Of a stretch of 29,479 nt of DNA, positions 1-12,271 are shown in pieces (position 1 is the stretch's first letter; every line of letters begins with the position of its first letter). Source of the stretch: Minisyncoccota bacterium (GTDB lineage Bacteria; Patescibacteriota; Minisyncoccia; Phycocordibacterales; UBA6065); the NCBI GenBank assembly GCA_035765615.1, contig DASTXF010000082.1:1-29479 (forward strand), in the 5' to 3' direction. The notes beneath the pieces are model-generated. The model was not told where the DNA came from and ran no database searches. It saw only the letters and a program-made list of their open reading frames with translations. A program made the position numbers and the translations under genes.

Positions 1-2
1 TC

Positions 3-110
3 TACACGACCGTGAACGCCGCATGGCCTCGCGGTTTCCACCCTTTTACGGCCTACGCCGTGAAAGCAACTGCACCTACAACCGAAACTGAAGGAAAGGA
101 GACTGAATAG
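3..110 (+). CDS. 3' end of a gene truncated by the window edge (…YTTVNAAWPRGFHPFTAYAVKATAPTTETEGKETE*); possibly the kinase-like partner of the vWA/PurA-like operon
   Basis: The frame is open from base 3 to TAG at 108-110, and the next ATG is at 112 with AAGGAG embedded in this tail. The product guess rests only on my recollection of similar operons and is weak. Confidence 0.5.
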   Translation, partial: YTTVNAAWPRGFHPFTAYAVKATAPTTETEGKETE

Positions 111-111
111 T

Positions 112-1239
112 ATGGGAGAACATGTGCTTTCTAAGGAAGCCTACACGCGCGTCGCCGATTCTGTGCGAAGCGAAGGGGGCTCCGCCACCCGTCGCGGGGA
201 ACAGCGTCTCGAATCAGGCAAGGGGCTCGATCCTCTTGTCGATCCGAAAGGCTTCGGCGCCATCAGGCGTTCGATTTCCCGCAAGGAAAAGCGCGGAGAC
301 CACTTCGTGCTCACCGTCGGCACGGCAATGCTCCTCGAGACCCAATTCGACGGCACGAGTTCCATGCGGGACAACGTCGACCTGGCGTTCGGGTCGCTTC
401 CGAAGGGGTACCATCTCCTCAAGGAAGCGGACAATGCACCGCTCGCGCGCTACGATCTGCAGAACATCAACGGCGTCTTCAACGACATCGGTGACAGCGT
501 TCTGCTTACCCGCTCGCAAGCGGAAATGGACGAGAAGATCGCGGAACAGCTCCGCCTTCTCATTCCGTGCCGGGCCGGAGGCGACATTGAGGAAGATCCG
601 CATTACGGACTCTTCGGTGCGGCCTACCTCACGGCGGCCGAAATCGTGAAGTACGGCCTCAAGTCGTATCATTTCACGGCCACGGATGCGCCGGGGCGGC
701 ACGAGACCATCTGGTCCGAGCTGCGCCGCGTGTACGGAGACGACGTGCTCGATATCGTCGAGTCGAATGGCTTCCAGATGAAAAAGGGAAGTCTGCCATC
801 GACGACCGAAATCGTGGCTGAGCTTCTGAAACGGGCGCATGCGTTCGTGATCCAGATCGGCAGCGATTCGGATACGGCGCGGTTCTGGACGGAAATCTAC
901 GGCCCCGAACGGGTCGTGACCATTCCGACGGCGCGGCACATCGCGGAGACGGAAGCGGCCATTGTCGGCCTCACCGAAGGAACCCTCGACCTTCAAGGTC
1001 TCGAGGAATTCCTCGTTGAGGAAGGCAAGCTGTCGCATTCCTCGGCAGGCCTCATCAGAGAGGCTGTCGCGGGCATTCCGATTGGCGCGCAGGCGGCCTT
1101 GCCGAATTTCGGCAAGATCCCGCTCAAGGGCGCCAAGTTCGCCCAGAAGAGCGATCTCTGGCCGATCGACGCCAAAGAGCCGGCCGCTGCGAAACCCGCA
1201 GTCAAAGCCGGACCCAAGAAGGGAATGTGGCGCCCATAA
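112..1239 (+). CDS. vWA (von Willebrand A)-type domain protein, 375 aa
   Basis: MIDAS-like FDGTSSM (nt 346-366) follows a hydrophobic strand. Downstream blocks (DLQ..NGVFND, SQAEMDE, AGGD.E, KSYHFTATD) follow the pattern of vWA proteins I recall next to PurA-like genes. SD AAGGAG is present. Confidence 0.75.
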   Translation: MGEHVLSKEAYTRVADSVRSEGGSATRRGEQRLESGKGLDPLVDPKGFGAIRRSISRKEKRGDHFVLTVGTAMLLETQFDGTSSMRDNVDLAFGSLPKGYHLLKEADNAPLARYDLQNINGVFNDIGDSVLLTRSQAEMDEKIAEQLRLLIPCRAGGDIEEDPHYGLFGAAYLTAAEIVKYGLKSYHFTATDAPGRHETIWSELRRVYGDDVLDIVESNGFQMKKGSLPSTTEIVAELLKRAHAFVIQIGSDSDTARFWTEIYGPERVVTIPTARHIAETEAAIVGLTEGTLDLQGLEEFLVEEGKLSHSSAGLIREAVAGIPIGAQAALPNFGKIPLKGAKFAQKSDLWPIDAKEPAAAKPAVKAGPKKGMWRP

Positions 1240-1251
1240 GCGCCTTCCCGC

Positions 1252-1276
1252 AAGGGCGGCCCGAAAAGCCGCCCTT
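1252..1276 (+). terminator. Intercistronic GC stem-loop (weak terminator or mRNA stabiliser)
   Basis: AAGGGCGGC/GCCGCCCTT 9-bp stem with a 7-nt loop, followed by an imperfect T tract TCACTTT. Confidence 0.5.
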
Positions 1277-1287
1277 TCACTTTACCG

Positions 1288-2685
1288 ATGCACACCAAAC
1301 AGATATTCACCGTCACCGACCTCGGGGGAGGCGACGGAGGAAAGGGAGGAATCGTCCATAAGATCGCCATCGAGACAAATGCCCATACCGTTCTCAAGGT
1401 AGGCGGCGCCCAAGGCAGCCATGGCGTTCGCACTTCGCGCGGCGAAGCGTTTAACTTCAGCCAATGGGGCTGCGGAACATTCGAAGGCGTGCCAACCCAT
1501 GTCACGAGCCTCATGGTCATTGACCCTGTTGGCTTCGTGCATGAGGGCAACCGCCTGCGCTTCCAGCACGGCGTTCCGAACGCCTTCGACATGATCACTG
1601 TCGACGAAAACTGCCTCTGCGCGACGTCATTTCATGGCATCGCATCCCGCCTGCGCGAACTTGCGCGGAAAGGGAAGCAGAAAGGCACCGTCGGCGTGGG
1701 GATCGGCGAAGCGAAGCTCGATTCCGAGCTTCGTCCCGATCTCGCGATCTATGCGAAGGACCTCGGCAGTCCCGATTTATTTGATCGGATCGAAGCAGTC
1801 CGAAAGCACAAGCTTTCGGAGCTGTCGGAAATCATCGAAAATATCAGGGATCTCTGGCCGAACGATCTCAGCCTTGCCGAGCGTGAGATTGATCTCTTGA
1901 ACGACGAAGGCTATTCGCGATGGATCACAGCGAAGTTCCACGAAATGAAATCGAGGACTCGCATTGTTCCTGCTGAATACCTATCGCGCGAGATTCTTTC
2001 GAAAGACGGCACTGCTGTCGTCGAGAGTTCCCACGGCGTCCTCACCGACAAGTACTACGGATTCCATCCGTACGTATCACGGCTGCGGACATTGCCGGAA
2101 GCGACAGCGGGCCTCCTTCGGTCAGCCGGTTACGATGGTGAAATCGTGCGTCTCGGGGTAACCCGGGCGTATCAGATTCGCCACGGCGCCGGTCCTCTTG
2201 TGACCGAGTCTTCCGAGCTCACGGACAAATTGCTGCCCGGAAGCCACAAGAACGAGAATCGCTGGCAAGGGAAGGTTCGTGTCGGGCCGCTCGACTTCGT
2301 AGCCTTGCGCTACGCTGTCGATGTCTGCGGCGGACCGGGTGCGTTCGATGGTATCGCTGTCACTTGGTTCGACCAGATTCTTGTCGCAGGCGCGTGGCGC
2401 ATGTGCGACCGGTATCTGAAAACGAATGGTTCCGAGTTCTTTTCTTCCGATGGCCGAACGATTAATGTTCGGCGCGGCGAAGACGAAAGCCAGATCCGCC
2501 GTCAGGCGGAACTTGCGGAGGCGCTCTTCAAGTGCGCTCCTGCGATTGATTCGCACGAGCCTCTCGGAAAGGGTGACGAAGCAAAAGCGACCGAGCTTTG
2601 CTCCGCGGTCTTCGATGAAAAACTCGGAGTTCCGGTACGGATGATATCCTTCGGATCGACCGAGGATGGCAAGGTTTGTCTTTAG
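1288..2685 (+). CDS. Adenylosuccinate synthetase-like (divergent PurA family) protein, 465 aa
   Basis: P-loop DLGGGDGGKG (PurA: WGDEGKG), GGAQGSH (PurA: GxNAGH), GTVGVGIG, ESSHGVLTD..YGFHPY (PurA: EGAQGxxLD..xGxYPY), C-terminal ISFG. Confidence 0.85.
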   Translation: MHTKQIFTVTDLGGGDGGKGGIVHKIAIETNAHTVLKVGGAQGSHGVRTSRGEAFNFSQWGCGTFEGVPTHVTSLMVIDPVGFVHEGNRLRFQHGVPNAFDMITVDENCLCATSFHGIASRLRELARKGKQKGTVGVGIGEAKLDSELRPDLAIYAKDLGSPDLFDRIEAVRKHKLSELSEIIENIRDLWPNDLSLAEREIDLLNDEGYSRWITAKFHEMKSRTRIVPAEYLSREILSKDGTAVVESSHGVLTDKYYGFHPYVSRLRTLPEATAGLLRSAGYDGEIVRLGVTRAYQIRHGAGPLVTESSELTDKLLPGSHKNENRWQGKVRVGPLDFVALRYAVDVCGGPGAFDGIAVTWFDQILVAGAWRMCDRYLKTNGSEFFSSDGRTINVRRGEDESQIRRQAELAEALFKCAPAIDSHEPLGKGDEAKATELCSAVFDEKLGVPVRMISFGSTEDGKVCL

Positions 2686-2694
2686 GACGATTGC

Positions 2695-2726
2695 AAGGCG
2701 GAAACTCCACGTTTCCGCCTTTTTTC
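2695..2726 (+). terminator. Rho-independent terminator
   Basis: AAGGCGGAAAC/GTTTCCGCCTT stem plus T run, just after the stop at 2685. Confidence 0.85.
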
Positions 2727-2754
2727 TTGCCCGGTTTTTATCTCGCCTCGATCA

Positions 2755-2783
2755 TTGACGCTAGTGTGTCTTTATGGTAAAAG
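2755..2783 (+). promoter_or_regulatory. Probable sigma70 promoter for the 2857 gene
   Basis: TTGACG-17 nt-TAAAAG with TG extended -10. Confidence 0.45.
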
Positions 2784-2856
2784 GTGAAAAGAGCTTATTC
2801 TAAGCCCTCAAGCCCTTTGTCAGTGTCAGTGGATCCACAAACACAAGGAGTAAAAA

Positions 2857-4083
2857 ATGGCACCTGCAGAAAGCAGCCCCGCGGCACCCGCCGCGGCCCC
2901 CAATGCCTGGGAAGAACGCATCAAGGCGTTCTCCGAGGCAGTTTCGAAACCGGCCGATGACATCGTCACGGCCTTGAAGCCCCTGGTGGGCGAACCCGGA
3001 CCGGCGGCCCTCGCGGCCCTCTCCGATCCCACGGCGGTGACCGACACCGATCTCCAGGAAGCCCTCTCGAAGGGCGGCCCGGCGATCCCGCTCGGCATCC
3101 TCCGCAAGAACCTGTCCAAGCTCCGCGGCCCGCAGATCGCGGGCGAGCCGGCCACGGCCGAACGCGCGCACTCGTTTGATGCCTTGCCCTCGGTTCCCGA
3201 GGACGCGAGCTTCCTCGAGATGCTCAAGGTCGGCGGCAGTCTCAAGGTCGGCAAGGTCGAAGTGATCTCCGCCATGAAGGCGGCGATCGCCGAACAGCTC
3301 GGACTCTTCGACATTCCGACGACGCTCACCGAGAAGATGGAATCGTTCGCCGAGGCGCAGGAAGAGCCCGTCGGCCCGGACTTCTACACGCTCAGGAAGC
3401 TCATCGCTCGCCGGAGCTACGCCGAAGTCCTCGCTGTCCTCGACGTGCCGGGTGATTTCGTCACCGCCGGCCGCCGCTCGGCCTTCCTCGAGAAGCTCAA
3501 CACGCTTCTCTGGCCGGAACTCGCGAGTTTCCACCGCCAATTGGTGGGGTGGTCCGACTCGTGGAATACCGGCGCGGCGAATCCCGGCCTGGCCCTCACC
3601 ATGATGGCGATGGCGCAGTCGGGCAATCGCATGGCCATGCCACCTGGCATGCTCCAGCCGCCGGATACTTCGGCGGTTCGCGATTCGGCCGAGGCGCTCA
3701 TCAACACCATCAACAAGGTGTTCGCCGGCTTCGGCATTCCCGTCGCCCGCGCGCTCGCCTACGACGCGACCAAGATCAAGGAGGTGCTGGAGAACAACAA
3801 GCTCCCGCCTGCGATCGGCGCGACGAACAAGGACCAGATGCTCAAGATGCTCGGCATCGCGGTCGGCGCGGATTATGTCCGCACCGAGCGGAACATCACC
3901 CGGTACACCCTGGCGGCCATGGAGCTCAAGGACGTCCCGGGCGGCAACGAGGAATACGCCTATCTCGGCGCGCTCCTCCAGCTCGGTCTCACCATCCAGT
4001 GGGACAAGCTGCCGGGCGGCGTCGCCACCCGTGCCGGAATCGGCCGCGGGACGCGGAACGGCATTCACGAACGGGCCTTGTAG
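2857..4083 (+). CDS. Hypothetical alpha-helical protein, 408 aa, with a possible N-terminal SAM-like domain
   Basis: Long ORF with strongly biased G/C-ending codons, SD AAGGAG, and its own promoter and terminator. Segment LAALSD..VTDTDLQEAL…IPLGILRKNLSKLR resembles a SAM helix pattern. Confidence 0.85.
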   Translation: MAPAESSPAAPAAAPNAWEERIKAFSEAVSKPADDIVTALKPLVGEPGPAALAALSDPTAVTDTDLQEALSKGGPAIPLGILRKNLSKLRGPQIAGEPATAERAHSFDALPSVPEDASFLEMLKVGGSLKVGKVEVISAMKAAIAEQLGLFDIPTTLTEKMESFAEAQEEPVGPDFYTLRKLIARRSYAEVLAVLDVPGDFVTAGRRSAFLEKLNTLLWPELASFHRQLVGWSDSWNTGAANPGLALTMMAMAQSGNRMAMPPGMLQPPDTSAVRDSAEALINTINKVFAGFGIPVARALAYDATKIKEVLENNKLPPAIGATNKDQMLKMLGIAVGADYVRTERNITRYTLAAMELKDVPGGNEEYAYLGALLQLGLTIQWDKLPGGVATRAGIGRGTRNGIHERAL

Positions 4084-4104
4084 AAGGGTTCCCTCAAACA
4101 AAAC

Positions 4105-4135
4105 GCCGGACAACCAATGGTTGTCCGGCTTTTTT
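4105..4135 (+). terminator. Rho-independent terminator between convergent genes
   Basis: GCCGGACAACC/GGTTGTCCGGC 11-bp perfect stem plus TTTTTT; A-rich run upstream suggests it is bidirectional. Confidence 0.9.
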
Positions 4136-4139
4136 ATTC

Positions 4140-5912
4140 CTACCGCGAGATGTGAGGCAGGAAGACTTTCTTGAGGAACAGCTTCGAAGCAAGGCGGCGA
4201 TAGCCCGGATCCCAGAAGGATACGTTCGTCGCCAGAGCATCGGACTTCGGAACGAATTCCGACGTCCGTTCCGGGTTCGATCGGGCATACCCTTTGTGCA
4301 TAAGGCGATAGAGCAGGATGTCCCGCTCCATCTCGAGAAGCCAGACCGTCCGGGCGCTTTGCCCGAGGATCCGTTCAGAGCCGTTTGCGTAGAGGTACCG
4401 TTCGAGCACATCGGCGAAGAGCCTCCGCAGGACGCTTTCTTCGCCCGTCCAGATGCTTCCGAAGAGGACATGAACGAGCGTGCTGTCGCCCTGCGTGCGG
4501 TCAGGATCAGGGAAATCCCTGATCCTGAGGCCGCGCTCATCGCTTTCGAGCCAGAAGTCCACAGGCATTCCGATGCCAAGCGGCTCCAGGGTTTCCTTCA
4601 GGAGTTTCTGGATGGCAGCTCGATGCTCGTACGGCACGCCAGGCTTCACGAATATCGCCGTGTCGAGGTCGGCGGTGCGACTCCCGTATCCCTTGATGCG
4701 AGAACCGTACGCGATCGCGACGGGCAGAACATAAGCGCCCGCTTCGCTGTGGGCGATAGCTTGCGCGATCGATGAATACTCATCGACTTCGATTGAGCCA
4801 AGGGCCACGCCGCCTTCGAGATCGGGCATTTGGAGCCCGAGGGTCGAAAGGATGTCTGCCTCCGCGACGCCTCCGGCAACAAGCCGGAAAAACGCGCTTT
4901 CGGCAGCGTCGGCTGTTTCCTGGTCGGCATCCGTAAGGCACGCGGCGAGAAAGGGCTTGAACGAAGGGAAGAGGTCGGGAGCAGTCTCGGTGGCCATTTG
5001 CGCCACGAGAATGCCGATCATTGTCATATCGGCATCTTCCTGACCAAGGTTTTGCAGAAACGCGTCGGCCGAGATGGTTCCCGCCTTGAGAAGCAGGGAA
5101 ATATCTTTGGCAGCCCGGCGTATTGCCGCAGCCTTGTCGCGTTTCATTTCCCAGGCGATCCTCGTCTTCGGTTTCCCAAAATAGAGGTGAGAATCCTGGC
5201 TTTCCTTGATCTCTTCGCGCGCCAAGGCGAGCCGTTCAGAGAGCCGTGTCGAATCGTAATGCTCCGAAGGTTTCGGATCATTGCCGATGCAGTCGATGGC
5301 TTCCATCGCGCTTTTTCGGAGGGTGAGGTTGTCTGCCGAATCACGGATGAATTCCGCTTCTTCGCGCGAAATGAATCCTTTCGCGATAAGAATCGGAATG
5401 AAGTGCGCGGCTTTGACCACGCGGGGCAAGGGGCCCGTGCGCATTTCCGCCTCGGGTATGTCCCCGTCAACGAAATTGGCCCGGGTGTCCTCGCACGAAA
5501 GAAGCTCGTGCCACGCCCGCAGGTACGAATCGCGGAAACGGCTTGCCGCTGCGGCAAGTTTGATTTCCGTGGGTTTCCAGTCTCGCTCCGGGAGGAGCTC
5601 GAAGGGAAGGTAGAGGACAAGCCGGTCGCTCCAGGGTTCCGCGTGCAAGTAGAACGCGAGCCGCTGGTATGCGGAGGCGGCTTCGATCTCAGTTACGAGA
5701 CCTGCAGCGACAGCCTTTTGGAGGCTCATCGAGGGATTGGGAATCCGCCGAAAGAGCGAGTCGAGGTCGTCGATGGCCAATCTGCGCCATTCAGCGTATT
5801 TCCTGAGCCACGAGTCGTCGAGGACGCTTTTCCTCCAGAACGAATCTTGGCCGGGATTAAGAAGCGAGTCGACCGGGGGCCGAATCGCCAGAAAACATTC
5901 TGTTTGCTTCAT
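4140..5912 (-). CDS. Pol-beta superfamily nucleotidyltransferase domain protein, 590 aa, with a long helical N-terminal region
   Basis: YGSRIKGYGSRTADLDTAIF = hGS…DxD motif (nt 4662-4706); candidate third acid in PVDFW. Confidence 0.8.
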   Translation of the reverse strand: MKQTECFLAIRPPVDSLLNPGQDSFWRKSVLDDSWLRKYAEWRRLAIDDLDSLFRRIPNPSMSLQKAVAAGLVTEIEAASAYQRLAFYLHAEPWSDRLVLYLPFELLPERDWKPTEIKLAAAASRFRDSYLRAWHELLSCEDTRANFVDGDIPEAEMRTGPLPRVVKAAHFIPILIAKGFISREEAEFIRDSADNLTLRKSAMEAIDCIGNDPKPSEHYDSTRLSERLALAREEIKESQDSHLYFGKPKTRIAWEMKRDKAAAIRRAAKDISLLLKAGTISADAFLQNLGQEDADMTMIGILVAQMATETAPDLFPSFKPFLAACLTDADQETADAAESAFFRLVAGGVAEADILSTLGLQMPDLEGGVALGSIEVDEYSSIAQAIAHSEAGAYVLPVAIAYGSRIKGYGSRTADLDTAIFVKPGVPYEHRAAIQKLLKETLEPLGIGMPVDFWLESDERGLRIRDFPDPDRTQGDSTLVHVLFGSIWTGEESVLRRLFADVLERYLYANGSERILGQSARTVWLLEMERDILLYRLMHKGYARSNPERTSEFVPKSDALATNVSFWDPGYRRLASKLFLKKVFLPHISR

Positions 5913-6026
5913 GTGTAAAGGAATTCTTTCCCCTTTCTATAACGAATATTAAGCTATGTCAAATTATCTTTGGCTCGTGGAATTTTAACTTTCGACAGAC
6001 ATCTGCTATAGTCAAAACCCAATATT

Positions 6027-7124
6027 ATGTCTCTTTCAATCGGCATCGTCGGTCTCCCAAACGTAGGCAAATCAACCCTTTTCAACGCCCTTACTCGAAA
6101 GAGCGTTCTTGTGGCGAATTATCCGTTCGCAACTATCGATCCGTCAGTTGGCGTCGTCGCCGTCCCTGACCTGCGCCTGTGGAAGCTTTCGGAATTTTCG
6201 AAATCGAAAAAAACCGTTCCGGCTGCGGTTGAATTCGTTGATATTGCGGGCCTTGTGAAAGGCGCGGCCCAAGGCGAAGGCCTCGGCAACAAATTCCTTT
6301 CGAATATCCGCGAGACTGACGCTATTGCCGAAGTTGTGCGTATATTCGAGGACGACGATATCATTCATGTTTCGAACAAGATCGATCCGCTCCGCGACAT
6401 AGAAGTCATCAATATGGAGCTCATTTTCGCCGATCTCGATACGGTGACCAAACGCATGCAGAATATCGGCAAGGACGTGAAGGCTGGAAAAAAGGAAGCC
6501 GCGATCGAAATGAAGCTTTTGGAGCGTTTGAAGCCGTCGCTTGAAGCGGGGAATCTCGCGTCGACGGTTTCCGCAGACGAATTCGAAGCGCCGTTCTTGC
6601 GCCAACTCCATCTCCTCACTTCCAAGAAAATCCTTTATGTTTTGAATAAGAAAAGCGGCGGCAGGAACCTTGATGAAATGAAAGACGAGCGCTATACGAA
6701 ACTCATCGATTTCATTGAGAAGAGCAAGGCAGGCTACGTCATCGTCGATGCGGGCATCGAACACGATTTGAAAGACATGTCGGACGCAGAGAAAGCCGAA
6801 ATGCGCCAGGGGCTCGGCGGTATCGATAATGGCATCGATAACCTCATCAAGAAAAGCTACGAAATTCTCGGCCTCATTTCGTATTTCACGACGGGTGAAG
6901 ACGAAACGCGCGGTTGGACGATTCAGAAAGGCTGGACGGCGCCTCTTGCGGGCACGGCTATTCATACGGATTTCAAAGACAAATTCGTGCGCGCTGAAGT
7001 AATCGAGTGGGACAAGCTTCTTGCGGCCGGCTCATATGCTGCCGCACGCGAAAAAGGCCTCATCAGGACCGAAGGCAAGGAATACATCGTAAAAGACGGC
7101 GACGTGATCGAGTTCAAGATTTAA
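6027..7124 (+). CDS. ychF: Obg-family redox-regulated ATPase YchF
   Basis: GIVGLPNVGKSTLFNALT, ANYPFATIDP, DIAGLVKGA..GEGLGNKFL, C-terminal EGKEYIVKDGDVIEFK. Confidence 0.98.
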   Translation: MSLSIGIVGLPNVGKSTLFNALTRKSVLVANYPFATIDPSVGVVAVPDLRLWKLSEFSKSKKTVPAAVEFVDIAGLVKGAAQGEGLGNKFLSNIRETDAIAEVVRIFEDDDIIHVSNKIDPLRDIEVINMELIFADLDTVTKRMQNIGKDVKAGKKEAAIEMKLLERLKPSLEAGNLASTVSADEFEAPFLRQLHLLTSKKILYVLNKKSGGRNLDEMKDERYTKLIDFIEKSKAGYVIVDAGIEHDLKDMSDAEKAEMRQGLGGIDNGIDNLIKKSYEILGLISYFTTGEDETRGWTIQKGWTAPLAGTAIHTDFKDKFVRAEVIEWDKLLAAGSYAAAREKGLIRTEGKEYIVKDGDVIEFKI

Positions 7125-7133
7125 AAACGCTCC

Positions 7134-7604
7134 ATGAATTATTGGCTCGTAAAATCGGAAGGCGAGTGTTATTCGATCGACGATTTAAGACGAGATAAAC
7201 GCACTGCGTGGGAAGGCATCCGTAATTTCCAGGCGCGGAATTTTATGAAAGATGGCATGAAGATCGGAGACTTGGTGCTTTTCTATCATTCGATGTCGGA
7301 GCCTACGGGTGTTTATGGAATCGCACGGGTTCTGAGCGCGCCGCATATCGATGCATCCGCGCTTGATCCTAAGGACGAACATTACGATCCGAAGGCAGTG
7401 AAGTACCAAAAAGAAGGAAAGGATCCATTGTGGTCTTGCGTCGATCTTGAATTCGTCAGGAAATTCGATCGGCCGGTGTCGCTCGAAGAGATAAAAAGCA
7501 ATCGCGCTCTCGATGGCATCCTCGTTGCGCGCCGAGGACAAAGACTCTCCGTCATGCCAGTTATCGAGAGTCATTTCAAGACAATCGAGAAGATGGCCGG
7601 GTAA
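7134..7604 (+). CDS. EVE domain (PUA-like) protein
   Basis: MNYWLVKSE…WEGIRNFQARNFM..MKIGDLVLFYHS…RLSVMPV is the typical EVE pattern. Confidence 0.93.
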   Translation: MNYWLVKSEGECYSIDDLRRDKRTAWEGIRNFQARNFMKDGMKIGDLVLFYHSMSEPTGVYGIARVLSAPHIDASALDPKDEHYDPKAVKYQKEGKDPLWSCVDLEFVRKFDRPVSLEEIKSNRALDGILVARRGQRLSVMPVIESHFKTIEKMAG

Positions 7605-7605
7605 T

Positions 7606-7634
7606 TTGACGCGTATATCGAGTCGTGACAGTAT
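7606..7634 (+). promoter_or_regulatory. Probable promoter for the small ORF at 7700
   Basis: TTGACG-17 nt-CAGTAT with TG extension. Confidence 0.45.
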
Positions 7635-7699
7635 GCCTTCGGACTAGGATTCTTATCCTATTTGCTTGTCCGGCCTCATCCAAGTGAAAGGACTGTCAC

Positions 7700-7873
7700 A
7701 TGTTGGAACAGCTCAAGACAATGCTTAGACTCATGATCGCCGACGACGAAATGTTCGATCTCGCGGCCCGGGCGCTCAAGAAGACCCACGATGCGCTCGT
7801 GAAAAACGGGTTCACCGAGGAACAGGCGACGCTTATCGTCGCGCACCAGGGCATCGGCGGGAAGACGAGTTGA
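7700..7873 (+). CDS. Small hypothetical protein, 57 aa (MLEQLKTMLRLMIADDEMFDLAARALKKTHDALVKNGFTEEQATLIVAHQGIGGKTS); not in the supplied ORF track
   Basis: Hand-translated. SD AAAGGA lies 7 nt before ATG, codon usage is host-like, and the sequence is amphipathic-helical with a GFTEEQA motif. Confidence 0.75.
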   Translation: MLEQLKTMLRLMIADDEMFDLAARALKKTHDALVKNGFTEEQATLIVAHQGIGGKTS

Positions 7874-7880
7874 CGTCAGA

Positions 7881-7909
7881 TTGACAGAAATCGTCCCCTA
7901 GCGTAATCT
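7881..7909 (+). promoter_or_regulatory. Sigma70 promoter for the non-coding unit
   Basis: TTGACA (7881-7886), 17 nt, TAATCT (7904-7909). Confidence 0.7.
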
Positions 7910-7914
7910 CACCG

Positions 7915-8186
7915 CCAGAGCTTGTAGCTTCCATAGTAGTTCAAGTCGCTCCGTATAACGCGTCCGGAAGCGGAAGGCGGAAGCGGCGACCGGGTCGCAC
8001 AGGACCCGAGAAAGACAACACCTACTAGGTATCGCGAGCAGTCCCGCTAATGGCCTGCCGATGCATATAGCCCGGGACAATGTGCAAGCACTGTGCGTAG
8101 CTAAGGAATCGGTATACCTGGTAGTTGAAATGATACGTGGAAGGACAGTCTTCAGAGCCGGCGCAGGTTCGCTTGCGTCGTTCTCC
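7915..8186 (+). ncRNA. Unidentified structured non-coding RNA (~270 nt), partially RNase P RNA-like
   Basis: Bounded by a promoter and a terminator, with no convincing ORF. The ends pair (7928-7944 with 8125-8143), with several internal GC stems, two loop-to-distal complementarities and a UUCG hairpin at 8159-8180. Confidence 0.65.
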
Positions 8187-8218
8187 AAACCCTCGTGCTG
8201 GGATGCACGAGGGTTTTT
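8187..8218 (+). terminator. Rho-independent terminator
   Basis: AAACCCTCGTGC/GCACGAGGGTTT 12-bp perfect stem plus T tract. Confidence 0.9.
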
Positions 8219-8250
8219 GTTTTGTCCAAAATTTCTGGCGCAACAAATAA

Positions 8251-8276
8251 AAGCGCCCCTATGATGAGGGGCGCTT
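8251..8276 (-). terminator. Terminator of the 8259-8888 gene
   Basis: AAGCGCCCCT/AGGGGCGCTT 10-bp stem overlapping the stop codon, T-rich tail on the minus strand. Confidence 0.75.
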
Positions 8277-8888
8277 GAATGATTCTTGGAATACAGTCGA
8301 GGTGAAAGCGCTGCCATCTCTGATCCAGGCGAATGCCTGCTCGATGACGATTTCGTCCTTGAGCCCGGTGATTTCTTCTTGGGTGACTTTCTTCCAGATG
8401 GCCGTAAGAATAGCAGGATCTCTCCATGGCTCTCGGAGATTGGTCATCTCCTGGAGAGGGAGATTTACACCCCGGACTTTCGAGCGCCATTTTTCCGGCA
8501 CGTGGAAGGCGAGGGCGATCGACACTCGAACATGAGGAACGAATTCCCGGAGGATTTCGAGATCGGCCTCCCTGAGCGACGGCCTGCCTTGGTAACGGGC
8601 GAGATTTCTGACGAAGCCCGCGATACCTTCCGGTATAGCGCGCACGCCTCGATAGTGCTCAAGAAGGACAGTCACGACCTCCTTCGTTACTTCATCTCGG
8701 ACGACGTCGACAGACTGCTCGTCTCGTTCACTCCAGACAAGCCAGTGCCTTCGGTTGCTTCCCGGTTCCCGGCCGCCGTTTAAGGCGATGCCGGTCGAGA
8801 TGCAATGATCGATATCGATATCGTAGAGAGAGGTGCGGTGCATGAGCCGCTTACCTCCGTGGGCTGTAAAGCGGGTAACAATGTTCAT
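8259..8888 (-). CDS. Hypothetical protein, 209 aa
   Basis: Longest ORF here, with an AT-rich upstream region and its own terminator; no recognised motif. Confidence 0.75.
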   Translation of the reverse strand: MNIVTRFTAHGGKRLMHRTSLYDIDIDHCISTGIALNGGREPGSNRRHWLVWSERDEQSVDVVRDEVTKEVVTVLLEHYRGVRAIPEGIAGFVRNLARYQGRPSLREADLEILREFVPHVRVSIALAFHVPEKWRSKVRGVNLPLQEMTNLREPWRDPAILTAIWKKVTQEEITGLKDEIVIEQAFAWIRDGSAFTSTVFQESFKRPSS

Positions 8889-9018: not shown

Positions 9019-9243
9019 ATGAAGGCACTTCACGTGATCGCTTTCATCCTCGTCATTGTCGGCGGCCTTAACTGGCTCCTCGTCGGCCTTGGCGGAGATT
9101 CTTGGAACGTTGTTGCCATGCTCGGTTCGTCCGTAGCTCGCATCGCTTACGTTCTCGTCGGTCTTTCTGCCCTCGTCCTTGTCTTTTCCCACAAGAAGGA
9201 CTGCAAGATGTGCGAGGCGAAGGCTTCCCAGCCAACGATGTAG
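9019..9243 (+). CDS. DUF378-family small membrane protein
   Basis: LVIVGGLNWLLVGL…RIAYVLVGLSAL; TGnTATAAT at 8965-8973 upstream. Confidence 0.9.
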   Translation: MKALHVIAFILVIVGGLNWLLVGLGGDSWNVVAMLGSSVARIAYVLVGLSALVLVFSHKKDCKMCEAKASQPTM

Positions 9244-9262
9244 TCCTCTGCGACTCATCTCC

Positions 9263-9288
9263 GAAAAGCCGGCTTCGGCCGGCTTTTC
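9263..9288 (+). terminator. Rho-independent terminator
   Basis: GAAAAGCCGGC-TTCG-GCCGGCTTTTC. Confidence 0.85.
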
Positions 9289-9331
9289 ATTTTTAGGCCT
9301 TGTGCGCTATATTCAATGCACCGAAAACCTC

Positions 9332-12271
9332 ATGAAAAAGTACGACCATAAGAAAATCGAGAAGAAATGGCAGGGGGAGTGGGAACGCTCTCATATATAT
9401 AAGACGGGCGCGCCTGCCGCCAAAAAGCCGAAATTCTATATTCTCGACATGTTCCCGTACCCGTCGGGCGAAGGTCTTCATGTCGGCCACCCGAAAGGCT
9501 ATATCGCGACCGACATCGTCTCGCGCATGAAGCGCATGCAGGGATACAACGTTCTCCATCCAATGGGCTTTGATGCATTCGGCCTGCCAGCAGAAAATTA
9601 TGCTCTCAAGACTAAAACCAATCCGCGCATTGCCGTCGCTAAAAACGTGAAGCGCTACAAGAAGCAGCTCGAAATCATCGGCTTTGACTATGACTGGTCG
9701 CGCGAAGTGAATACCACCGATCCGAAATACTACAAGTGGACGCAGTGGATTTTCTTGAAGCTTCTCGAGAAGGGTCTCGCATACGAATCGTACGAGCCGA
9801 TTAATTGGTGTCCGTCATGCAAAACCGGACTCGCGAATGAGGACGTTGTGGACGGCCGCTGCGAGCGCTGCAATACGCCTGTTGAAAAGAAGCCGATGCG
9901 CCAATGGGTCCTCCGCATCACCAAATACGCCGATCGTCTGCTTGAGGACCTCGATGCCAAGGAATCAGACGTGCCTCTTATAAAAAGAACAATAGGAAGC
10001 GACAAGGTGCGAGCCGATTTGCCGTTCCAGGAACGTCACGCCATCGTCTCGATCGTAAAACACTGGTCGGAAGACAAATACCTCTGCTCTCGTTATAAGA
10101 AAAATGATTGGCAGGGATTCATTACGGGCGGAGTTGAAGAAGGTGAAGACATTGGCAAGACCGCCGTGCGCGAGGTTGCTGAAGAGAGCGGATACGAGAG
10201 CGCACGATTCGTGCGCACATTCGGCCGCGTGGACTCGCAGTTCTATCATGAAGTGAAAAACGTCAATCGTTTCGCTCATTTTACGGGCGTCTATCTCGAA
10301 CTCGCTGACGGCAAACGAAACGAGCCTGCGGAGGAAGAAAAGGCTCTCGCCGATGTCGTGTGGCTTTCGAAAGAAGAGGTTGGGAAATTCCTCAATAGGG
10401 AAGACATGAAATATCTCTGGGATCTTTTTACGGGCAAGAAAAAGCAGGAAGGCGAAAAGCCGCTCCTCGAATGGCCGGAATCAATCAAGGAGGCGCAGCG
10501 AAACTGGATCGGCCGATCCGAAGGCGCGGAAATCAACTTTTCGCTTAAAGTTGGCGGAAAGGAACGTTCTGAAAAACTTACCGTATTTACAACTCGTCCG
10601 GACACGCTTTTCGGCGTGACGTATGTTGTTGTTGCTCCTGAACACGCATTTGTCACCGAGCTTTTAAAGCATAAAGAAAATCTTAAGAACCACGATGATG
10701 TCGTGAAATATGTTGCGTCAGCTCGCGTCATGACGGAAATCGAGCGCACTGATGCCAAGAAAGATAAAACCGGCGTGAAGCTTGAAGGCGTTGCCGCTGT
10801 GAATCCAGCAAACGGCGAAGAAGTACCTGTCTATGTTGCAGATTACGTCCTTGCTGATTACGGAACGGGCGCAGTTATGGCTGTGCCGGCGCATGACGAG
10901 CGCGACTATGCTTTCGCAAAGCGATTCGGGCTCAAGATCGTAGAAGTCGTCCTCGGCGGCGATGTTTCGAAGGAGGCATATATCGGATCAGGCAAGCTCG
11001 CAAACTCCGGCGAATTCTCGGGTTCTGATTCAGAATCGAGCAAAAAAGCCATTACCAAATCTGTCGGTGGTGAATGGGTCGTTAAATACAAGCTCAAGGA
11101 CTGGGTCTTTTCACGTCAGCGCTACTGGGGTGAGCCAATTCCGGTCCTTCACGATGGAACGGCTGTGATTCCTGTCTCAGAAAAAGATCTTCCGGTCGAA
11201 CTTCCGAATGTTAAGTCCTATGAGCCGACAGGTACCGGCGAATCGCCTCTTGCTGGCATTGCAAAGTGGGTCAATGTGAAGGTCGGCAGGGGTAAAGACG
11301 CGAAGATTGTTAAGCGCGAAACAAACACCATGCCGCAGTGGGCAGGTTCTTCGTGGTACTACCTCCGATTCATGGACCCAAAGAATCCGAAAAAGCTCGT
11401 CGATCCGAAAGCGGAAAAATACTGGAACCAGGTCGACTTCTATGTTGGCGGTGCGGAGCACGCCACCCGACATCTCATTTATGCTCGTTTCTGGCACAAG
11501 TTCCTTTATGACATTGGCGCCATTTCCACCAAGGAACCGTTCAAGAAACTCCAGTCGGTGGGTCTCATCATGGGCGAAGATGGCAGGAAAATGTCCAAGC
11601 GTTTCGGAAACGTAGTAAATCCGGATGATATCGTTTCGGTCTATGGCGCCGACACTCTCCGTGTCTACGAAATGTTCATGGGTCCGTTCGATCAGGCGAT
11701 TGCATGGTCGACTTCCGGCATCGTCGGCTCGCGTCGCTTCCTTGAGCGCGTCTGGAATATGCGGGAAAAGGTAGCCTCGAACGAGACTGAAGAGGCATCA
11801 TTCCCGAAGCAGGCCGATGTACTTCTTAACAAGACCATAAAGAAGGTCTCCGAAGACATGGCCGCGCTCCGCCACAACACTGCAGTTAGCTCGCTCATGA
11901 TCCTTTCGAACGAATTCGAAAAGGCGCCGTCTGTGCCGCGCGCCGCGTACGAGGCGCTCCTCAAGCTCCTTGCACCGCTCGCCCCGCACATGGCTGAAGA
12001 GCTTTGGAGAAGCCTCGGAAACAAAAAATCAATCCATGTTTCGACCTGGCCGAAGGCGGATGAGTCAAAGCTTGTCGAGGAATCGGTGACGATCGTTGTT
12101 CAGGTGAACGGTAAGGTTCGCGGCAGCTTCGAGGCGTCGAAAAACGCGGCGAAAGACGATCTTGAGAAGGCAGCCCTTGGTCTCGATGAGGTCAAAAAAT
12201 GGACAGAAGGGAAGGAGATCCGAAAGATCATCGTTGTTCCCGGAAAGCTCGTTTCGATCGTCGTAAGCTAG
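9332..12271 (+). CDS. leuS: Leucine--tRNA ligase (979 aa) with an inserted NUDIX domain
   Basis: MFPYPSGEGLHVGH (HIGH), KMSKR, editing-domain TTRPDTLFG, WVFSRQRYWGEPIP. True start is likely MKKYDH at 9332, since the ORF-track start at 9179 runs through the upstream gene and terminator. Confidence 0.97.
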   Translation: MKKYDHKKIEKKWQGEWERSHIYKTGAPAAKKPKFYILDMFPYPSGEGLHVGHPKGYIATDIVSRMKRMQGYNVLHPMGFDAFGLPAENYALKTKTNPRIAVAKNVKRYKKQLEIIGFDYDWSREVNTTDPKYYKWTQWIFLKLLEKGLAYESYEPINWCPSCKTGLANEDVVDGRCERCNTPVEKKPMRQWVLRITKYADRLLEDLDAKESDVPLIKRTIGSDKVRADLPFQERHAIVSIVKHWSEDKYLCSRYKKNDWQGFITGGVEEGEDIGKTAVREVAEESGYESARFVRTFGRVDSQFYHEVKNVNRFAHFTGVYLELADGKRNEPAEEEKALADVVWLSKEEVGKFLNREDMKYLWDLFTGKKKQEGEKPLLEWPESIKEAQRNWIGRSEGAEINFSLKVGGKERSEKLTVFTTRPDTLFGVTYVVVAPEHAFVTELLKHKENLKNHDDVVKYVASARVMTEIERTDAKKDKTGVKLEGVAAVNPANGEEVPVYVADYVLADYGTGAVMAVPAHDERDYAFAKRFGLKIVEVVLGGDVSKEAYIGSGKLANSGEFSGSDSESSKKAITKSVGGEWVVKYKLKDWVFSRQRYWGEPIPVLHDGTAVIPVSEKDLPVELPNVKSYEPTGTGESPLAGIAKWVNVKVGRGKDAKIVKRETNTMPQWAGSSWYYLRFMDPKNPKKLVDPKAEKYWNQVDFYVGGAEHATRHLIYARFWHKFLYDIGAISTKEPFKKLQSVGLIMGEDGRKMSKRFGNVVNPDDIVSVYGADTLRVYEMFMGPFDQAIAWSTSGIVGSRRFLERVWNMREKVASNETEEASFPKQADVLLNKTIKKVSEDMAALRHNTAVSSLMILSNEFEKAPSVPRAAYEALLKLLAPLAPHMAEELWRSLGNKKSIHVSTWPKADESKLVEESVTIVVQVNGKVRGSFEASKNAAKDDLEKAALGLDEVKKWTEGKEIRKIIVVPGKLVSIVVS

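What the first reader, a model, noticed from the sequence alone, without database searches (positions are those of the whole stretch)
1..2726. Compact vWA + divergent PurA-like operon in a lineage not expected to make purines de novo
Seen: three co-oriented genes (truncated gene ending at 110, vWA protein starting 1 nt later, PurA-like enzyme) closed by one terminator. Established: CPR genomes generally lack de novo purine synthesis, and vWA/MIDAS domains act as protein-binding or chaperone adaptors rather than metabolic enzymes. Inference: this is a dedicated nucleotide- or protein-modification module (stress, conflict or signalling), not AMP biosynthesis. I recall vWA + kinase-like + PurA-like neighbourhoods in other bacteria with no assigned function, and the upstream gene may be that kinase.
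Basis: partly seen in the sequence, partly recalled or inferred. Interest (0 to 1): 0.8.

Follow-up and report, generated by a model that had tools for sequence, protein, structure and literature searches.

The report
NAD-linked vWA and PurA-like gene module
The window starts inside a conserved, undescribed five-gene module of ultrasmall (CPR) bacteria, built around a rewired copy of the purine enzyme PurA that always travels with a vWA protein, is shared with large phages, is tied to NAD/ADP-ribose regulation in relatives, and almost certainly does not make AMP.

Summary
A truncated gene ends at 110, a vWA-fold protein runs 112-1239, a divergent PurA-like enzyme runs 1288-2685, and a terminator sits at 2695-2721.

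The truncated gene is the guessed kinase-like protein; its first 240 residues lie on contig C56 of the same assembly. The unit is larger than three genes: pseudokinase, vWA, PurA-like, a SAM-like/helical protein (2857-4083) and a convergent Pol-beta nucleotidyltransferase (4140-5912, minus strand). This order recurs in 56 of 83 loci across Patescibacteria.

The vWA + PurA-like pair, mostly with a kinase-like gene, also occurs in about 220 phage records, mainly Bxz1-type mycobacteriophages.

The enzyme keeps its GTP site and catalytic Asp/Lys/His but lacks the aspartate pocket. It forms a clade apart from canonical PurA and co-exists with a canonical PurA in two of five carrier genomes checked. 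This genome shows no purB, purH or hpt.

In relatives the module sits beside nrtR and NAD-salvage genes. 21 of 69 loci carry an NrtR-type box upstream; none was found upstream of it in this genome.

The substrate is unknown. I found no paper describing it. This scan has reported the same module in at least 23 other genomes.

The parts
1..110 (+). 3' end (35 codons) of gene A, a protein-kinase-fold protein that is probably a pseudokinase. Residues 1-240 lie on contig C56 (10-741, minus strand) of the same assembly.
   Evidence: The C-terminal peptide aligns with the C-termini of gene A in L001-L003. The genome search places residues 1-240 on C56 and 252-284 on C82. The profile matches CK2-type kinases in the PDB at E 1e-7. 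The HRD-Asp equivalent is kept in only 4 of 35 members.
112..1239 (+). Gene B: vWA-fold protein with an intact MIDAS motif (D80-x-T82-x-S84, D192), a helical C-terminal part, a charged tail and a conserved terminal Trp.
   Evidence: AF2 pLDDT 93. Foldseek matches vWA domains. Conservation is shown. The family is small, with 148 representatives at 50% identity.
1288..2685 (+). Gene C: divergent adenylosuccinate-synthetase-fold enzyme. The P-loop Asp/Lys, catalytic His and guanine-binding Asp and Ser-x-Gly are kept. The aspartate pocket and part of the IMP pocket are replaced.
   Evidence: PF00709 107 bits; TIGR00184 77 bits against a cut-off of 395. Residue mapping onto E. coli and Acinetobacter PurA is. 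The protein lies in a clade apart from canonical PurA.
2695..2721 (+). Intrinsic-terminator-like hairpin closing A-B-C.
   Evidence: 11-bp stem, 5-nt loop, T-run.
2857..4083 (+). Gene D: all-helical protein with an N-terminal SAM-like domain. The rest has no recognisable fold relative. It has its own Shine-Dalgarno sequence.
   Evidence: Conserved downstream of C in most loci. AF2 pLDDT 88.5. PF22931 SAM-like matches 21 of 61 members. No significant fold match was found.
4105..4129 (.). Bidirectional terminator-like hairpin between the convergent genes D and E.
   Evidence: 11-bp stem with T-runs on both strands.
4140..5912 (-). Gene E: 590-aa protein with a Pol-beta-type nucleotidyltransferase core (G403-S404 ... 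D415-x-D417 invariant), between a conserved N-terminal domain and a helical C-terminal domain.
   Evidence: Weak Pfam Polbeta/NTP_transf_2 hits here, found in 27 of 39 members. Invariant motif. The profile hits the HI0073 minimal NTase and GLD-2. It is convergent with D in 56 or more loci.

Best explanation
Window 1-5912, together with contig C56, is one copy of a conserved five-gene module of Patescibacteria.

Shown:
- Gene order is pseudokinase (A), vWA/MIDAS protein (B), PurA-family enzyme (C), SAM-like helical protein (D) and a convergent Pol-beta nucleotidyltransferase (E).
- The B + C pair, usually with a kinase-fold gene, is the portable core and also occurs in large phages.
- C keeps what a PurA needs to bind GTP and transfer its gamma-phosphate, but not the aspartate pocket.

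Inferred:
- C is a GTP-dependent ligase. It phosphorylates an oxygen of a nucleotide-like substrate other than the IMP/aspartate pair and replaces it with a different nitrogen nucleophile.
- B holds C, or its target, through its metal site. A is a non-catalytic scaffold; one natural A-B fusion supports an A-B complex.
- E adds or removes a nucleotidyl group on a product or partner.
- The module serves NAD+/ADP-ribose homeostasis rather than AMP synthesis. In relatives it is flanked by nrtR and NAD-salvage genes and preceded by NrtR-type operators. Its phage copies would fit NAD-related counter-defence.

The substrate and product are not known.
For: Module conservation:
- The order A+B+C+D+E- occurs in 56 of 83 loci. 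Most of the rest are cut by contig ends.
- A divergent second type (L089, L091) has the same order.
- One A-B fusion protein exists, P0186.

The enzyme C:
- Kept: D16, K19, H45, D362 and S454-x-G456. They correspond to E. coli D13, K16, H41, D333 and the S414 motif.
- Changed: the [AST]TGRxRR aspartate motif is replaced by R-W-Q-G-x-V-R. Q224 becomes an invariant His, T129 becomes Val, and the R143 position is not conserved.
- The vWA-linked enzymes form one side of a branch (SH-aLRT 100) against 13 canonical PurAs.
- Carriers G301 and G302 also hold a canonical PurA (408 and 379 bits). Only G301 has purB.
- This genome has a single PF00709 hit and no purB, purH or hpt.

Phages:
- Gizmo gp267, gp268 and gp270 match A, B and C. 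hhalign probabilities are 98.9% and 99.6%; C is 33.6% identical.
- The vWA and the PurA-like protein hit nearly the same set of phage records, 220 and 226.
- A Vibrio phage has the B + C pair.

NAD link:
- nrtR lies in 19 loci, nadE in 8, pncA in 8 and pncB in 6.
- The box TAGTGT-N7-ACACTA, with up to 2 mismatches, lies within 220 nt upstream of A in 21 of 69 loci. The background is 0.09 per kb.
Against: - No substrate, product or complex has been shown.
- Complex prediction for B + C gave no verdict.
- In this genome no NrtR-type box lies upstream of A, D or E. The only boxes are on C110 (nrtR-nadE-nadD-pncB) and C101. That contig is not known to adjoin the module, so the NAD link rests on relatives.
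- About 70% of loci show no box with this consensus.
- Gizmo carries no D or E, and no NAD gene lies beside its triad.
- The second module type has Gln in place of the P-loop Asp, so catalysis may differ or be lost there.
- Absences in this genome are weakened by its 88.6% completeness.
- Residue roles come from recalled E. coli PurA structural literature, not from a structure of this protein.
Confidence: 0.6

Rival explanations
1. C is a genuine, merely divergent adenylosuccinate synthetase used to convert salvaged IMP to AMP. A, B, D and E are unrelated neighbours or regulators.
For: The PF00709 match exceeds Pfam's cut-off. The catalytic Asp, Lys and His and the guanine-binding residues are kept. 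Databases name it adenylosuccinate synthetase.
Against: The aspartate-binding motif is replaced and Q224 is an invariant His. The score is 77 bits against a 395-bit equivalog cut-off. The protein lies in a separate clade. Canonical PurA co-exists in G301 and G302, and purB is missing in 4 of 5 carriers and in this genome. No purH or hpt is present to supply IMP. Linkage to B is strict across CPR and phages.
Confidence: 0.06
2. The module is an anti-phage or inter-bacterial conflict system, and the phage copies are captured counter-measures. The vWA and pseudokinase sense an invader. The PurA-like enzyme and the nucleotidyltransferase make or destroy a nucleotide signal or toxic nucleotide.
For: Distribution is patchy: 3 of 301 sampled genomes of the phylum carry a member. 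The module is present in phages. Composition is atypical. One locus is flanked by type I restriction and toxin-antitoxin-like genes. NrtR control would fit a response to NAD depletion.
Against: There is no PADLOC hit for B, C, D or E. No recognisable effector such as a nuclease, pore or NADase is present. Sequence conservation is high (63% mean column identity for C), unlike typical fast-evolving defence genes. The flanks most often hold NAD salvage genes rather than defence genes. The flanks in this window are housekeeping genes.
Confidence: 0.2
3. C is a PurZ-like enzyme that makes a non-canonical purine nucleotide, such as a 2-aminoadenine-type or other N6-substituted base, for DNA or RNA modification.
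For: It is a phage-associated PurA paralogue. PHROG 1211 ('2-aminooxy adenylosuccinate synthetase') matches at 129 bits. Phage copies carry that annotation.
Against: No solved PurZ appears among PDB sequence hits of the protein or of its profile. No DatZ, MazZ or DpoZ-like gene lies in the module. The aspartate motif that a succino-intermediate route would need is not conserved. Chromosomal CPR copies sit with NAD genes, not DNA replication genes. No bona fide PurZ sequence was included in my tree, so the relationship is untested.
Confidence: 0.07
4. The GC-rich block is a recently acquired foreign island or prophage remnant with no role in the host.
For: GC is 60% against 51% in the rest of the window. 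The module is absent from the same-order genomes sampled. Homologues occur in phages.
Against: All five frames are intact here and in dozens of lineages, with strong conservation. The GC excess recurs in 55 of 56 loci whatever the host GC, so it is a property of the module and not of one transfer. Only 3 of 2.9 million IMG/VR contigs carry this type. No integrase or phage structural gene lies nearby.
Confidence: 0.05

Closest known systems
Adenylosuccinate synthetase PurA (EC 6.3.4.4; PF00709, TIGR00184)
   Same: Same fold family. The P-loop Asp and Lys, the catalytic His, R-x-G-x-GP, the guanine-binding Asp and the S-x-GP motif are kept, so GTP-driven phosphoryl activation is probably retained.
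   Different: The aspartate pocket ([AST]TGRxRR) is replaced. Q224 becomes His, T129 becomes Val and R143 is not conserved. The score is far below equivalog cut-offs. It lies in a separate clade. It co-exists with a true PurA and occurs without PurB. It is always linked to a vWA gene.
Phage PurZ (2-aminoadenylosuccinate synthetase of Z-genome phages)
   Same: It is a phage-borne PurA paralogue with changed substrate specificity. Phage members of the present family are often annotated as if they were PurZ.
   Different: There is no sequence hit to solved PurZ and no Z-cluster partner genes. The partners here are a vWA protein and a kinase-fold protein. A direct tree with verified PurZ was not made.
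vWA adaptor proteins of MoxR-type systems (CbbO, NorD, ViaA, CoxE; BchD/CobT in chelatases) - named from my own knowledge
   Same: A stand-alone cytoplasmic vWA protein with an intact MIDAS motif is encoded next to the enzyme it presumably serves.
   Different: No AAA+ MoxR ATPase lies in the module. The partner is a kinase-fold protein, which carries a J-like domain in the phage version at a weak Pfam score.
TerY-P triad (TerY vWA + Ser/Thr kinase + PP2C phosphatase; Anantharaman, Iyer and Aravind 2012) - recalled, not read here
   Same: A cytoplasmic vWA gene is paired with a kinase-fold gene.
   Different: There is no PP2C phosphatase. The kinase's catalytic Asp is not conserved. A PurA-like enzyme is the constant partner instead.
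NrtR regulon and phage NAD+ reconstitution pathways (NARP1 Adps + Namat; NARP2 NAMPT + NMNAT) - pathways named from my own knowledge and from earlier scan note e1-2030049
   Same: Genomic and operator link to the ADP-ribose-sensing repressor NrtR and to pncA, pncB and nadE in relatives. It is present both in bacteria and in large phages.
   Different: None of the five proteins is homologous to Prs/Adps, NAMPT/Namat or NMNAT. No NAD-related activity has been shown.

Membership tests
Canonical PurA (adenylosuccinate synthetase, EC 6.3.4.4) | Adenylosuccinate-synthetase fold (PF00709) | tested here: met
   107 bits, E 1.3e-30, covering 340 of 416 profile positions.
Canonical PurA (adenylosuccinate synthetase, EC 6.3.4.4) | Reaches the curated equivalog score (TIGR00184, NF002223) | tested here: not met
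   77 and 73 bits against cut-offs of 395 and 402.
Canonical PurA (adenylosuccinate synthetase, EC 6.3.4.4) | GTP site and catalytic residues (E. coli D13, K16, H41, D333, S414-x-G) | tested here: met
   D16, K19, H45, D362 and S454-x-G456 are invariant or nearly so in 24 members.
Canonical PurA (adenylosuccinate synthetase, EC 6.3.4.4) | Aspartate pocket ([AST]TGRxRR: T300, T301, R303, R305) | tested here: not met
   It is replaced by R-W-Q-G-x-V-R in all vWA-linked members, while all canonical sequences in the same alignment keep it.
Canonical PurA (adenylosuccinate synthetase, EC 6.3.4.4) | IMP pocket (Q224, T129, R143, N38) | tested here: not met
   Q224 is an invariant His. T129 is Val or Ile. 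The R143 column is variable. N38 is Gln.
Canonical PurA (adenylosuccinate synthetase, EC 6.3.4.4) | Works with PurB in the same genome | tested here: not met
   No purB in this genome, which is 88.6% complete, or in 4 of 5 other carriers.
Canonical PurA (adenylosuccinate synthetase, EC 6.3.4.4) | Groups with canonical PurA in a tree | tested here: not met
   13 canonical sequences separate from the vWA-linked ones with SH-aLRT 100 (quick LG+G4 tree; one mis-picked row, L098, ignored).
Canonical PurA (adenylosuccinate synthetase, EC 6.3.4.4) | Catalyses IMP + Asp + GTP to adenylosuccinate; complements purA | not testable with these tools
   Needs an enzyme assay or genetics.
PurZ | Sequence kinship to characterised PurZ and linkage to DatZ/MazZ/DpoZ | tested here: inconclusive
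   There is no PurZ among PDB sequence hits and no such neighbours. No verified PurZ was placed in the tree.
vWA / MIDAS domain proteins | vWA (dinucleotide-binding-like) fold | tested here: met
   AF2 pLDDT 93. The top 50 PDB Foldseek hits are vWA and integrin beta-I domains. AFDB hits are 'VWFA domain-containing' clusters.
vWA / MIDAS domain proteins | MIDAS motif D-x-S/T-x-S plus a distal Asp | tested here: met
   D80, S84 and D192 are invariant and T82 is at least 90% conserved in 58 sequences.
vWA / MIDAS domain proteins | Match to a curated vWA sequence model | tested here: not met
   No Pfam or NCBIfam hit at E up to 1.
MoxR-vWA chaperone pairs | Adjacent AAA+ MoxR ATPase | tested here: not met
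   No AAA+ domain in A, C, D or E, here or in L001-L003.
Active eukaryotic-type protein kinases (gene A) | Protein-kinase fold | tested here: met
   The profile of 35 members hits CK2 alpha at E 1e-7, with one alignment spanning residues 7-193. The phage homologue passes the Pfam Pkinase cut-off.
Active eukaryotic-type protein kinases (gene A) | Conserved catalytic Asp (HRD), beta3 Lys and DFG Asp | tested here: not met
   The HRD-Asp column holds Asp in 4 of 35 members, the beta3 Lys in 21 of 35 and the DFG Asp in 29 of 35.
Pol-beta superfamily nucleotidyltransferases (gene E) | G-[GS] ... D-x-[DE] catalytic motif | tested here: met
   G403, S404, D415 and D417 are invariant in 39 members. 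Polbeta/NTP_transf_2 match 27 and 18 of 39 members.
NrtR regulon | NrtR-type palindromic operator upstream of the operon | tested here: inconclusive
   The box is found in 21 of 69 related loci but not upstream of A, D or E in this genome. That NrtR binds this box is inferred from its positions before the nrtR operon on C110, not tested.
Phage NAD+ reconstitution pathways (NARP1/NARP2) | Adps/Prs-like, Namat/NAMPT-like or NMNAT-like enzymes | tested here: not met
   No such domains in the five proteins.

The most novel reading that the evidence does not exclude
The vWA-linked PurA-like enzyme is the catalyst of a new NAD+-rebuilding or NAD-guarding reaction shared by CPR bacteria and large phages. 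It would use GTP to activate an oxygen of an NAD breakdown or precursor nucleotide, for example ADP-ribose, deamino-NAD or a nicotinate nucleotide, and join it to a nitrogen nucleophile such as nicotinamide or ammonia. It would be switched on by NrtR when ADP-ribose rises. This would be a further route, unrelated to NARP1 and NARP2, by which phages and genome-reduced symbionts withstand NAD+ depletion.
Probability: 0.12. Interest if true: 0.9.

Novelty: categorically new. Interest (0 to 1): 0.76.

Why it matters
PurA chemistry, GTP-driven replacement of an oxygen by an amine, has so far produced one known off-shoot: PurZ, which underlies Z-genomes. Here a second, much larger off-shoot has a different pocket and obligatory vWA and pseudokinase partners. 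It is kept under strong purifying selection in organisms with some of the smallest known bacterial genomes and in about 220 phage records.

Keeping five genes in a 0.75-Mb genome implies an important function. The link to the ADP-ribose sensor NrtR and to NAD salvage genes makes a concrete hypothesis testable. NAD+ depletion is a central battleground between phages and bacteria, and CPR bacteria depend on hosts for cofactors.

The work also corrects database names: 'adenylosuccinate synthetase' in CPR and '2-aminooxy adenylosuccinate synthetase' in phages. These names inflate the apparent purine capacity of these genomes.

Tried and rejected
- Complex prediction for B + C: score 0.02, no verdict. 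It counts neither for nor against binding.
- An apparent B-C fusion ORF in L081 (748 aa) contains a run of X from masked or N bases between the two genes. It is an artefact and I withdraw it.
- The search for related loci with the vWA alignments A1 and A2 failed because no stretch was conserved enough. The PurA-like alignment A3 was used instead.
- Gene D: Foldseek against the PDB gave no hit below E 0.48. VIA-align gave a best Z of 6.1 (ClyA/YaxB-type helical bundles), within the noise for helical proteins. AFDB and the ESM Atlas gave nothing beyond its own family.
- PADLOC: no hit for B-E apart from one at E 0.034.
- Rfam and tRNA scans of the window found nothing.
- An NrtR box upstream of A, D or E in this genome was not found with up to 3-4 mismatches. 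A first word-matching attempt between intergenic regions gave only noise.
- D and E homologues were not found in phage Gizmo.
- A viral-contig scan with the G086 triad-type enzyme found nothing. With the module-type alignment it found only 3 contigs.
- No RNA sequencing run holds the stretch, so expression is untested.
- Literature searches for PurA-like + vWA, NrtR + adenylosuccinate, and Bxz1 + adenylosuccinate found no description of the module.
- I first labelled the Vibrio phage enzyme in my tree 'PurZ-like'. Its upstream gene is a B-family vWA, so it belongs to the vWA-linked family and the tree holds no true PurZ.


Full report
**1. What is in the sequence**

The window is the whole of contig C82 of a 754-kb, 116-contig assembly that is 88.6% complete.

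- An open frame enters from the window's left end and stops at 108-110.
- The next ORF starts at 112 and ends at 1239. A third runs 1288-2685.
- A strong terminator-like hairpin follows at 2695-2721.

The described anatomy is therefore correct.

Two further ORFs belong to the same unit. One runs 2857-4083 on the plus strand. The other runs 4140-5912 on the minus strand. A bidirectional hairpin at 4105-4129 separates them.

The block 1-5912 has 60% GC against 51% for the rest of the window. The rest of the window encodes housekeeping genes (ychF, leuS, mnmA, alaS, rpsM and others) typical of a reduced genome.

**2. The upstream contig**

The 35 residues encoded at 3-110 align with the C-termini of 274-285-aa proteins that precede the vWA gene in three related loci.

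I searched this genome with one of those proteins. Residues 1-240 lie on C56:10-741 (minus strand, 53% identity, E 9e-72), and residues 252-284 lie on C82:3-95. Reverse-complemented C56 therefore abuts the window, with about 10 codons missing between them.

Upstream of gene A on C56 lie the 3' end of a G6PD-like gene, recognised only by its sequence motif, and a flavodoxin-like NAD(P)H reductase gene.

**3. A conserved five-gene module**

The PurA-like protein has more than 900 homologues. The best 120 are 53-66% identical, and those that carry a name are labelled Patescibacteria.

A scan of one genome per species (185,579 species) found 150 relatives, and I examined 80 loci. Including L001-L003, two of which duplicate L007 and L012, HMMs for the five proteins show the order A+ B+ C+ D+ E- in 56 of 83 loci. 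Most exceptions are truncated by contig ends.

The carriers span these labelled groups:
- Paceibacteria-type groups
- Saccharibacteria
- Daviesbacteria (Microgenomates)
- Uhr-, Falkow-, Moran- and Nomurabacteria

A few bins carry labels outside the phylum (Gammaproteobacteria, Omnitrophota, Fibrobacteres, Bdellovibrionales). I did not verify these labels, and some come from automated MAG naming.

Other variants exist:
- A second, divergent type has the same order (L089, L091). There the vWA is 28-31% identical.
- A reduced A-B-C type occurs in another genome of the same phylum (G086, L093). A B-C pair lies beside a full module in L031.

Distribution is patchy. Only 3 of 301 sampled genomes of the phylum have a member, and none of the sampled same-order genomes does.

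**4. The five proteins**

*A, the kinase-like protein.*
- A profile of 35 members hits CK2-type kinases (E 1e-7).
- The column of the catalytic HRD Asp holds Asp in only 4 of 35 members, and the beta3 Lys is present in 21 of 35.
- The catalytic-loop Asn and the DFG Asp are each kept in 29 of 35.
- I read A as a pseudokinase that may still bind nucleotide.

*B, the vWA protein.*
- No sequence model recognises it.
- The AF2 model (pLDDT 93) is a vWA domain with an intact MIDAS motif.
- It ends in a charged tail with a conserved terminal Trp.

*C, the PurA-like enzyme.* See section 5.

*D, the helical protein.*
- It is all-helical (pLDDT 88.5).
- Its N-terminal domain matches the SAM-like family PF22931 in 21 of 61 members and resembles SAM and HhH domains only weakly.
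- The rest has no convincing relative.

*E, the nucleotidyltransferase.*
- It has an invariant G-S ... D-x-D Pol-beta nucleotidyltransferase motif.
- Profile hits to a minimal NTase and to GLD-2 support this.
- Conserved N- and C-terminal domains of unknown function flank the core.

One natural fusion of A and B (P0186, 679 aa) supports a physical A-B partnership. An apparent B-C fusion in L081 turned out to be an N-run artefact.

**5. Why C is not an ordinary PurA**

I mapped C onto E. coli PurA (HMMER alignment to 1ADE) and onto an Acinetobacter PurA. Residue roles are taken from my recollection of the E. coli enzyme's structural literature.

| Element (E. coli numbering) | State in the family |
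|---|---|
| P-loop Asp13, Lys16 | Kept |
| Catalytic His41 | Kept |
| R-x-G-x-GP | Kept |
| Guanine-binding Asp333 | Kept, in a T-W-F-D motif |
| S-x-GP motif | Kept |
| Aspartate pocket [AST]TGRxRR | Replaced by R-W-Q-G-x-V-R |
| Gln224 | Invariant His |
| Thr129 | Val or Ile |
| Arg143 position | Variable |

Further lines of evidence:
- C scores 77 bits against a 395-bit equivalog cut-off.
- In a quick ML tree, all vWA-linked enzymes fall on one side of a branch with SH-aLRT 100, against 13 canonical PurAs. One mis-picked ORF, L098, is disregarded.
- Two of five other carriers also encode a canonical PurA elsewhere (408 and 379 bits to PF00709). Only one of the five has purB.
- This genome has a single PF00709 hit and no detectable purB, purH or hpt. 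This is subject to its 88.6% completeness.

**6. Phages**

tblastn of C against 50,697 phage records hits 226 records: 201 Mycobacterium phages, 10 Rhizobium, 6 Vibrio and a few others. The best hits are cluster C1 (Bxz1-type) mycobacteriophages at 33.6% identity, well above the match to E. coli PurA.

In phage Gizmo the neighbourhood reads:
- gp267, 'serine/threonine kinase'
- gp268, hypothetical
- gp269, small
- gp270, 'PurA-like adenylosuccinate synthetase'

gp268 matches the B profile at 99.6% probability (E 8e-25). gp267 matches the A profile at 98.9%. gp267 also passes the Pfam Pkinase cut-off and has a weak J-domain match.

The phage vWA hits 220 records with the same taxonomic profile as the enzyme. 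A Vibrio phage has a B-family vWA directly upstream of its PurA-like gene. Gizmo has no D or E.

The constant core is thus B + C, usually with a kinase-fold partner. D and E are additions found only in the Patescibacteria-type modules.

**7. Link to NAD metabolism**

I clustered all flanking ORFs of the loci. The recurrent neighbours are:
- NrtR (Nudix + NrtR winged helix), in 19 loci, at a median of about 300 nt from the module on either side
- NadE, in 8 loci
- PncA-type isochorismatase, in 8 loci
- PncB, in 6 loci

A palindrome, TAGTGT-N7-ACACTA, emerged from the regions upstream of gene A. Allowing up to 2 mismatches, it lies within 220 nt of the start of A in 21 of 69 loci. The background over all loci is 0.09 per kb, which predicts about 1.5 boxes. 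It also lies about 100 nt upstream of A in G015.

In this genome the same box occurs twice in front of nrtR-nadE-nadD-pncB on contig C110. It occurs twice more on C101, between an SPFH-like plus NAD-kinase-like gene pair (assigned by eye from their sequences) and a small zinc-ribbon gene. I take these positions as indirect evidence that it is the NrtR operator.

No box lies upstream of A, D or E in this genome. Here the NAD link is an extrapolation from relatives.

**8. Composition**

The module is richer in GC than its flanks in 55 of 56 loci. The mean excess is 6.3 points and reaches 16.8, over host GC values from 28% to 56%.

In the window all three codon positions are raised, and D reaches GC3 0.86. 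A one-off recent transfer cannot explain a recurrent bias in the same direction. I cannot tell whether the cause is repeated transfer, codon selection or something else.

**9. Mechanism and rivals**

*Shown:* gene order, folds, motifs, phylogenetic separation, co-occurrence patterns and operator enrichment.

*Inferred:*
- C uses GTP to phosphorylate an oxygen of a nucleotide-like substrate and replaces it with a nitrogen nucleophile that is not aspartate.
- B, through its MIDAS site, and A act as adaptor and scaffold.
- E nucleotidylates a product or partner.
- The whole serves NAD+/ADP-ribose homeostasis.

Confidence by layer:

| Claim | Confidence |
|---|---|
| It is this conserved module and not AMP synthesis | about 0.85 |
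| It has an NAD-related role | about 0.45 |
| Any particular chemistry | at most 0.15 |

The rivals are a true PurA, a defence system, PurZ-like base modification and an inert foreign island. They are scored in their own sections.

**10. Novelty**

Six literature searches and one paper found no description of the module. Databases call C 'adenylosuccinate synthetase'.

This scan's own notes describe the same module in at least 23 other genomes, with the same reading: pseudokinase, vWA, PurA-like, SAM/HhH protein, NTase, NrtR and about 200-220 phages. I had found the conservation, the phage triad and the NrtR/NAD neighbours before reading those notes. The agreement is not fully independent, however, because the same tools were used.

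Specific to this window:
- the upstream half of gene A is located on C56;
- no NrtR box accompanies this copy;
- the L081 fusion is an artefact;
- the Vibrio phage 'PurZ-like' enzyme belongs to the vWA-linked family.

Noticed in passing
window 9179-12271 (+): The leucyl-tRNA synthetase (1030 aa) carries a NUDIX domain (PF00293, E 4e-13) at residues 301-408. It sits between the catalytic core and the editing domain, which is an unusual insertion for a LeuRS.
   Followed up: no
window 1-5912 and 56 related loci: The module is more GC-rich than its flanks in 55 of 56 loci (mean +6.3 points), whatever the host GC. In the window GC1, GC2 and GC3 are all raised, and gene D reaches GC3 0.86. No explanation fits well.
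   Followed up: partly
G000 contig C101, 17401-17442: Two tandem NrtR-type boxes (1 mismatch each) lie between a minus-strand SPFH-like gene followed by an NAD-kinase-like gene and a plus-strand 92-aa zinc-ribbon gene. The gene assignments are by eye from the sequences. These may be further members of this genome's NrtR regulon.
   Followed up: partly
G000 contig C110, 2790-7767: An nrtR-nadE(Gln-dependent)-nadD-pncB operon is preceded by two NrtR-type boxes (2822, 2872). The contig is also GC-rich (56.9%), like the module. Whether C110 adjoins the module is unknown.
   Followed up: partly
L031:2232-4790 (-), beside the module at 4923-8386: One genome has a second, divergent vWA + PurA-like pair of the phage-like type, directly beside and divergent from its full module.
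   Followed up: partly
L076:9531-11497: One Saccharibacteria locus has a duplicated A-B pair inserted between D and E (A B C D A B E).
   Followed up: no
L019, L038, L040, L050, L054, L062: 30-45 nt upstream of gene A: A recurrent TTGACAAT-like element lies close to the start codon of gene A, downstream of the likely promoter. It may be a second operator or only a -35-like box.
   Followed up: no
window 18489-19322 (+): The ORF combines an ATP-cone domain with an Mrr-type restriction endonuclease domain and an AF1548-like C-terminal domain. The next ORF is a PD-(D/E)XK/Cas4-like nuclease.
   Followed up: no
window 12394-13428 (+): The protein has sigma-70 region 4 at its N-terminus and a HARE-HTH domain further on, but no region 2. 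It may be an atypical transcription factor.
   Followed up: no
L082:401-2563: In one short Saccharibacteria contig, gene A is followed directly by C with no vWA gene between them. It is the only such locus seen.
   Followed up: no
L116 (phage Gizmo 131195-132853 and 137487-137789): The Bxz1-type phage that carries the triad is also annotated with a Ro-like protein and a short PnuC-like nicotinamide riboside transporter, both far from the triad.
   Followed up: no
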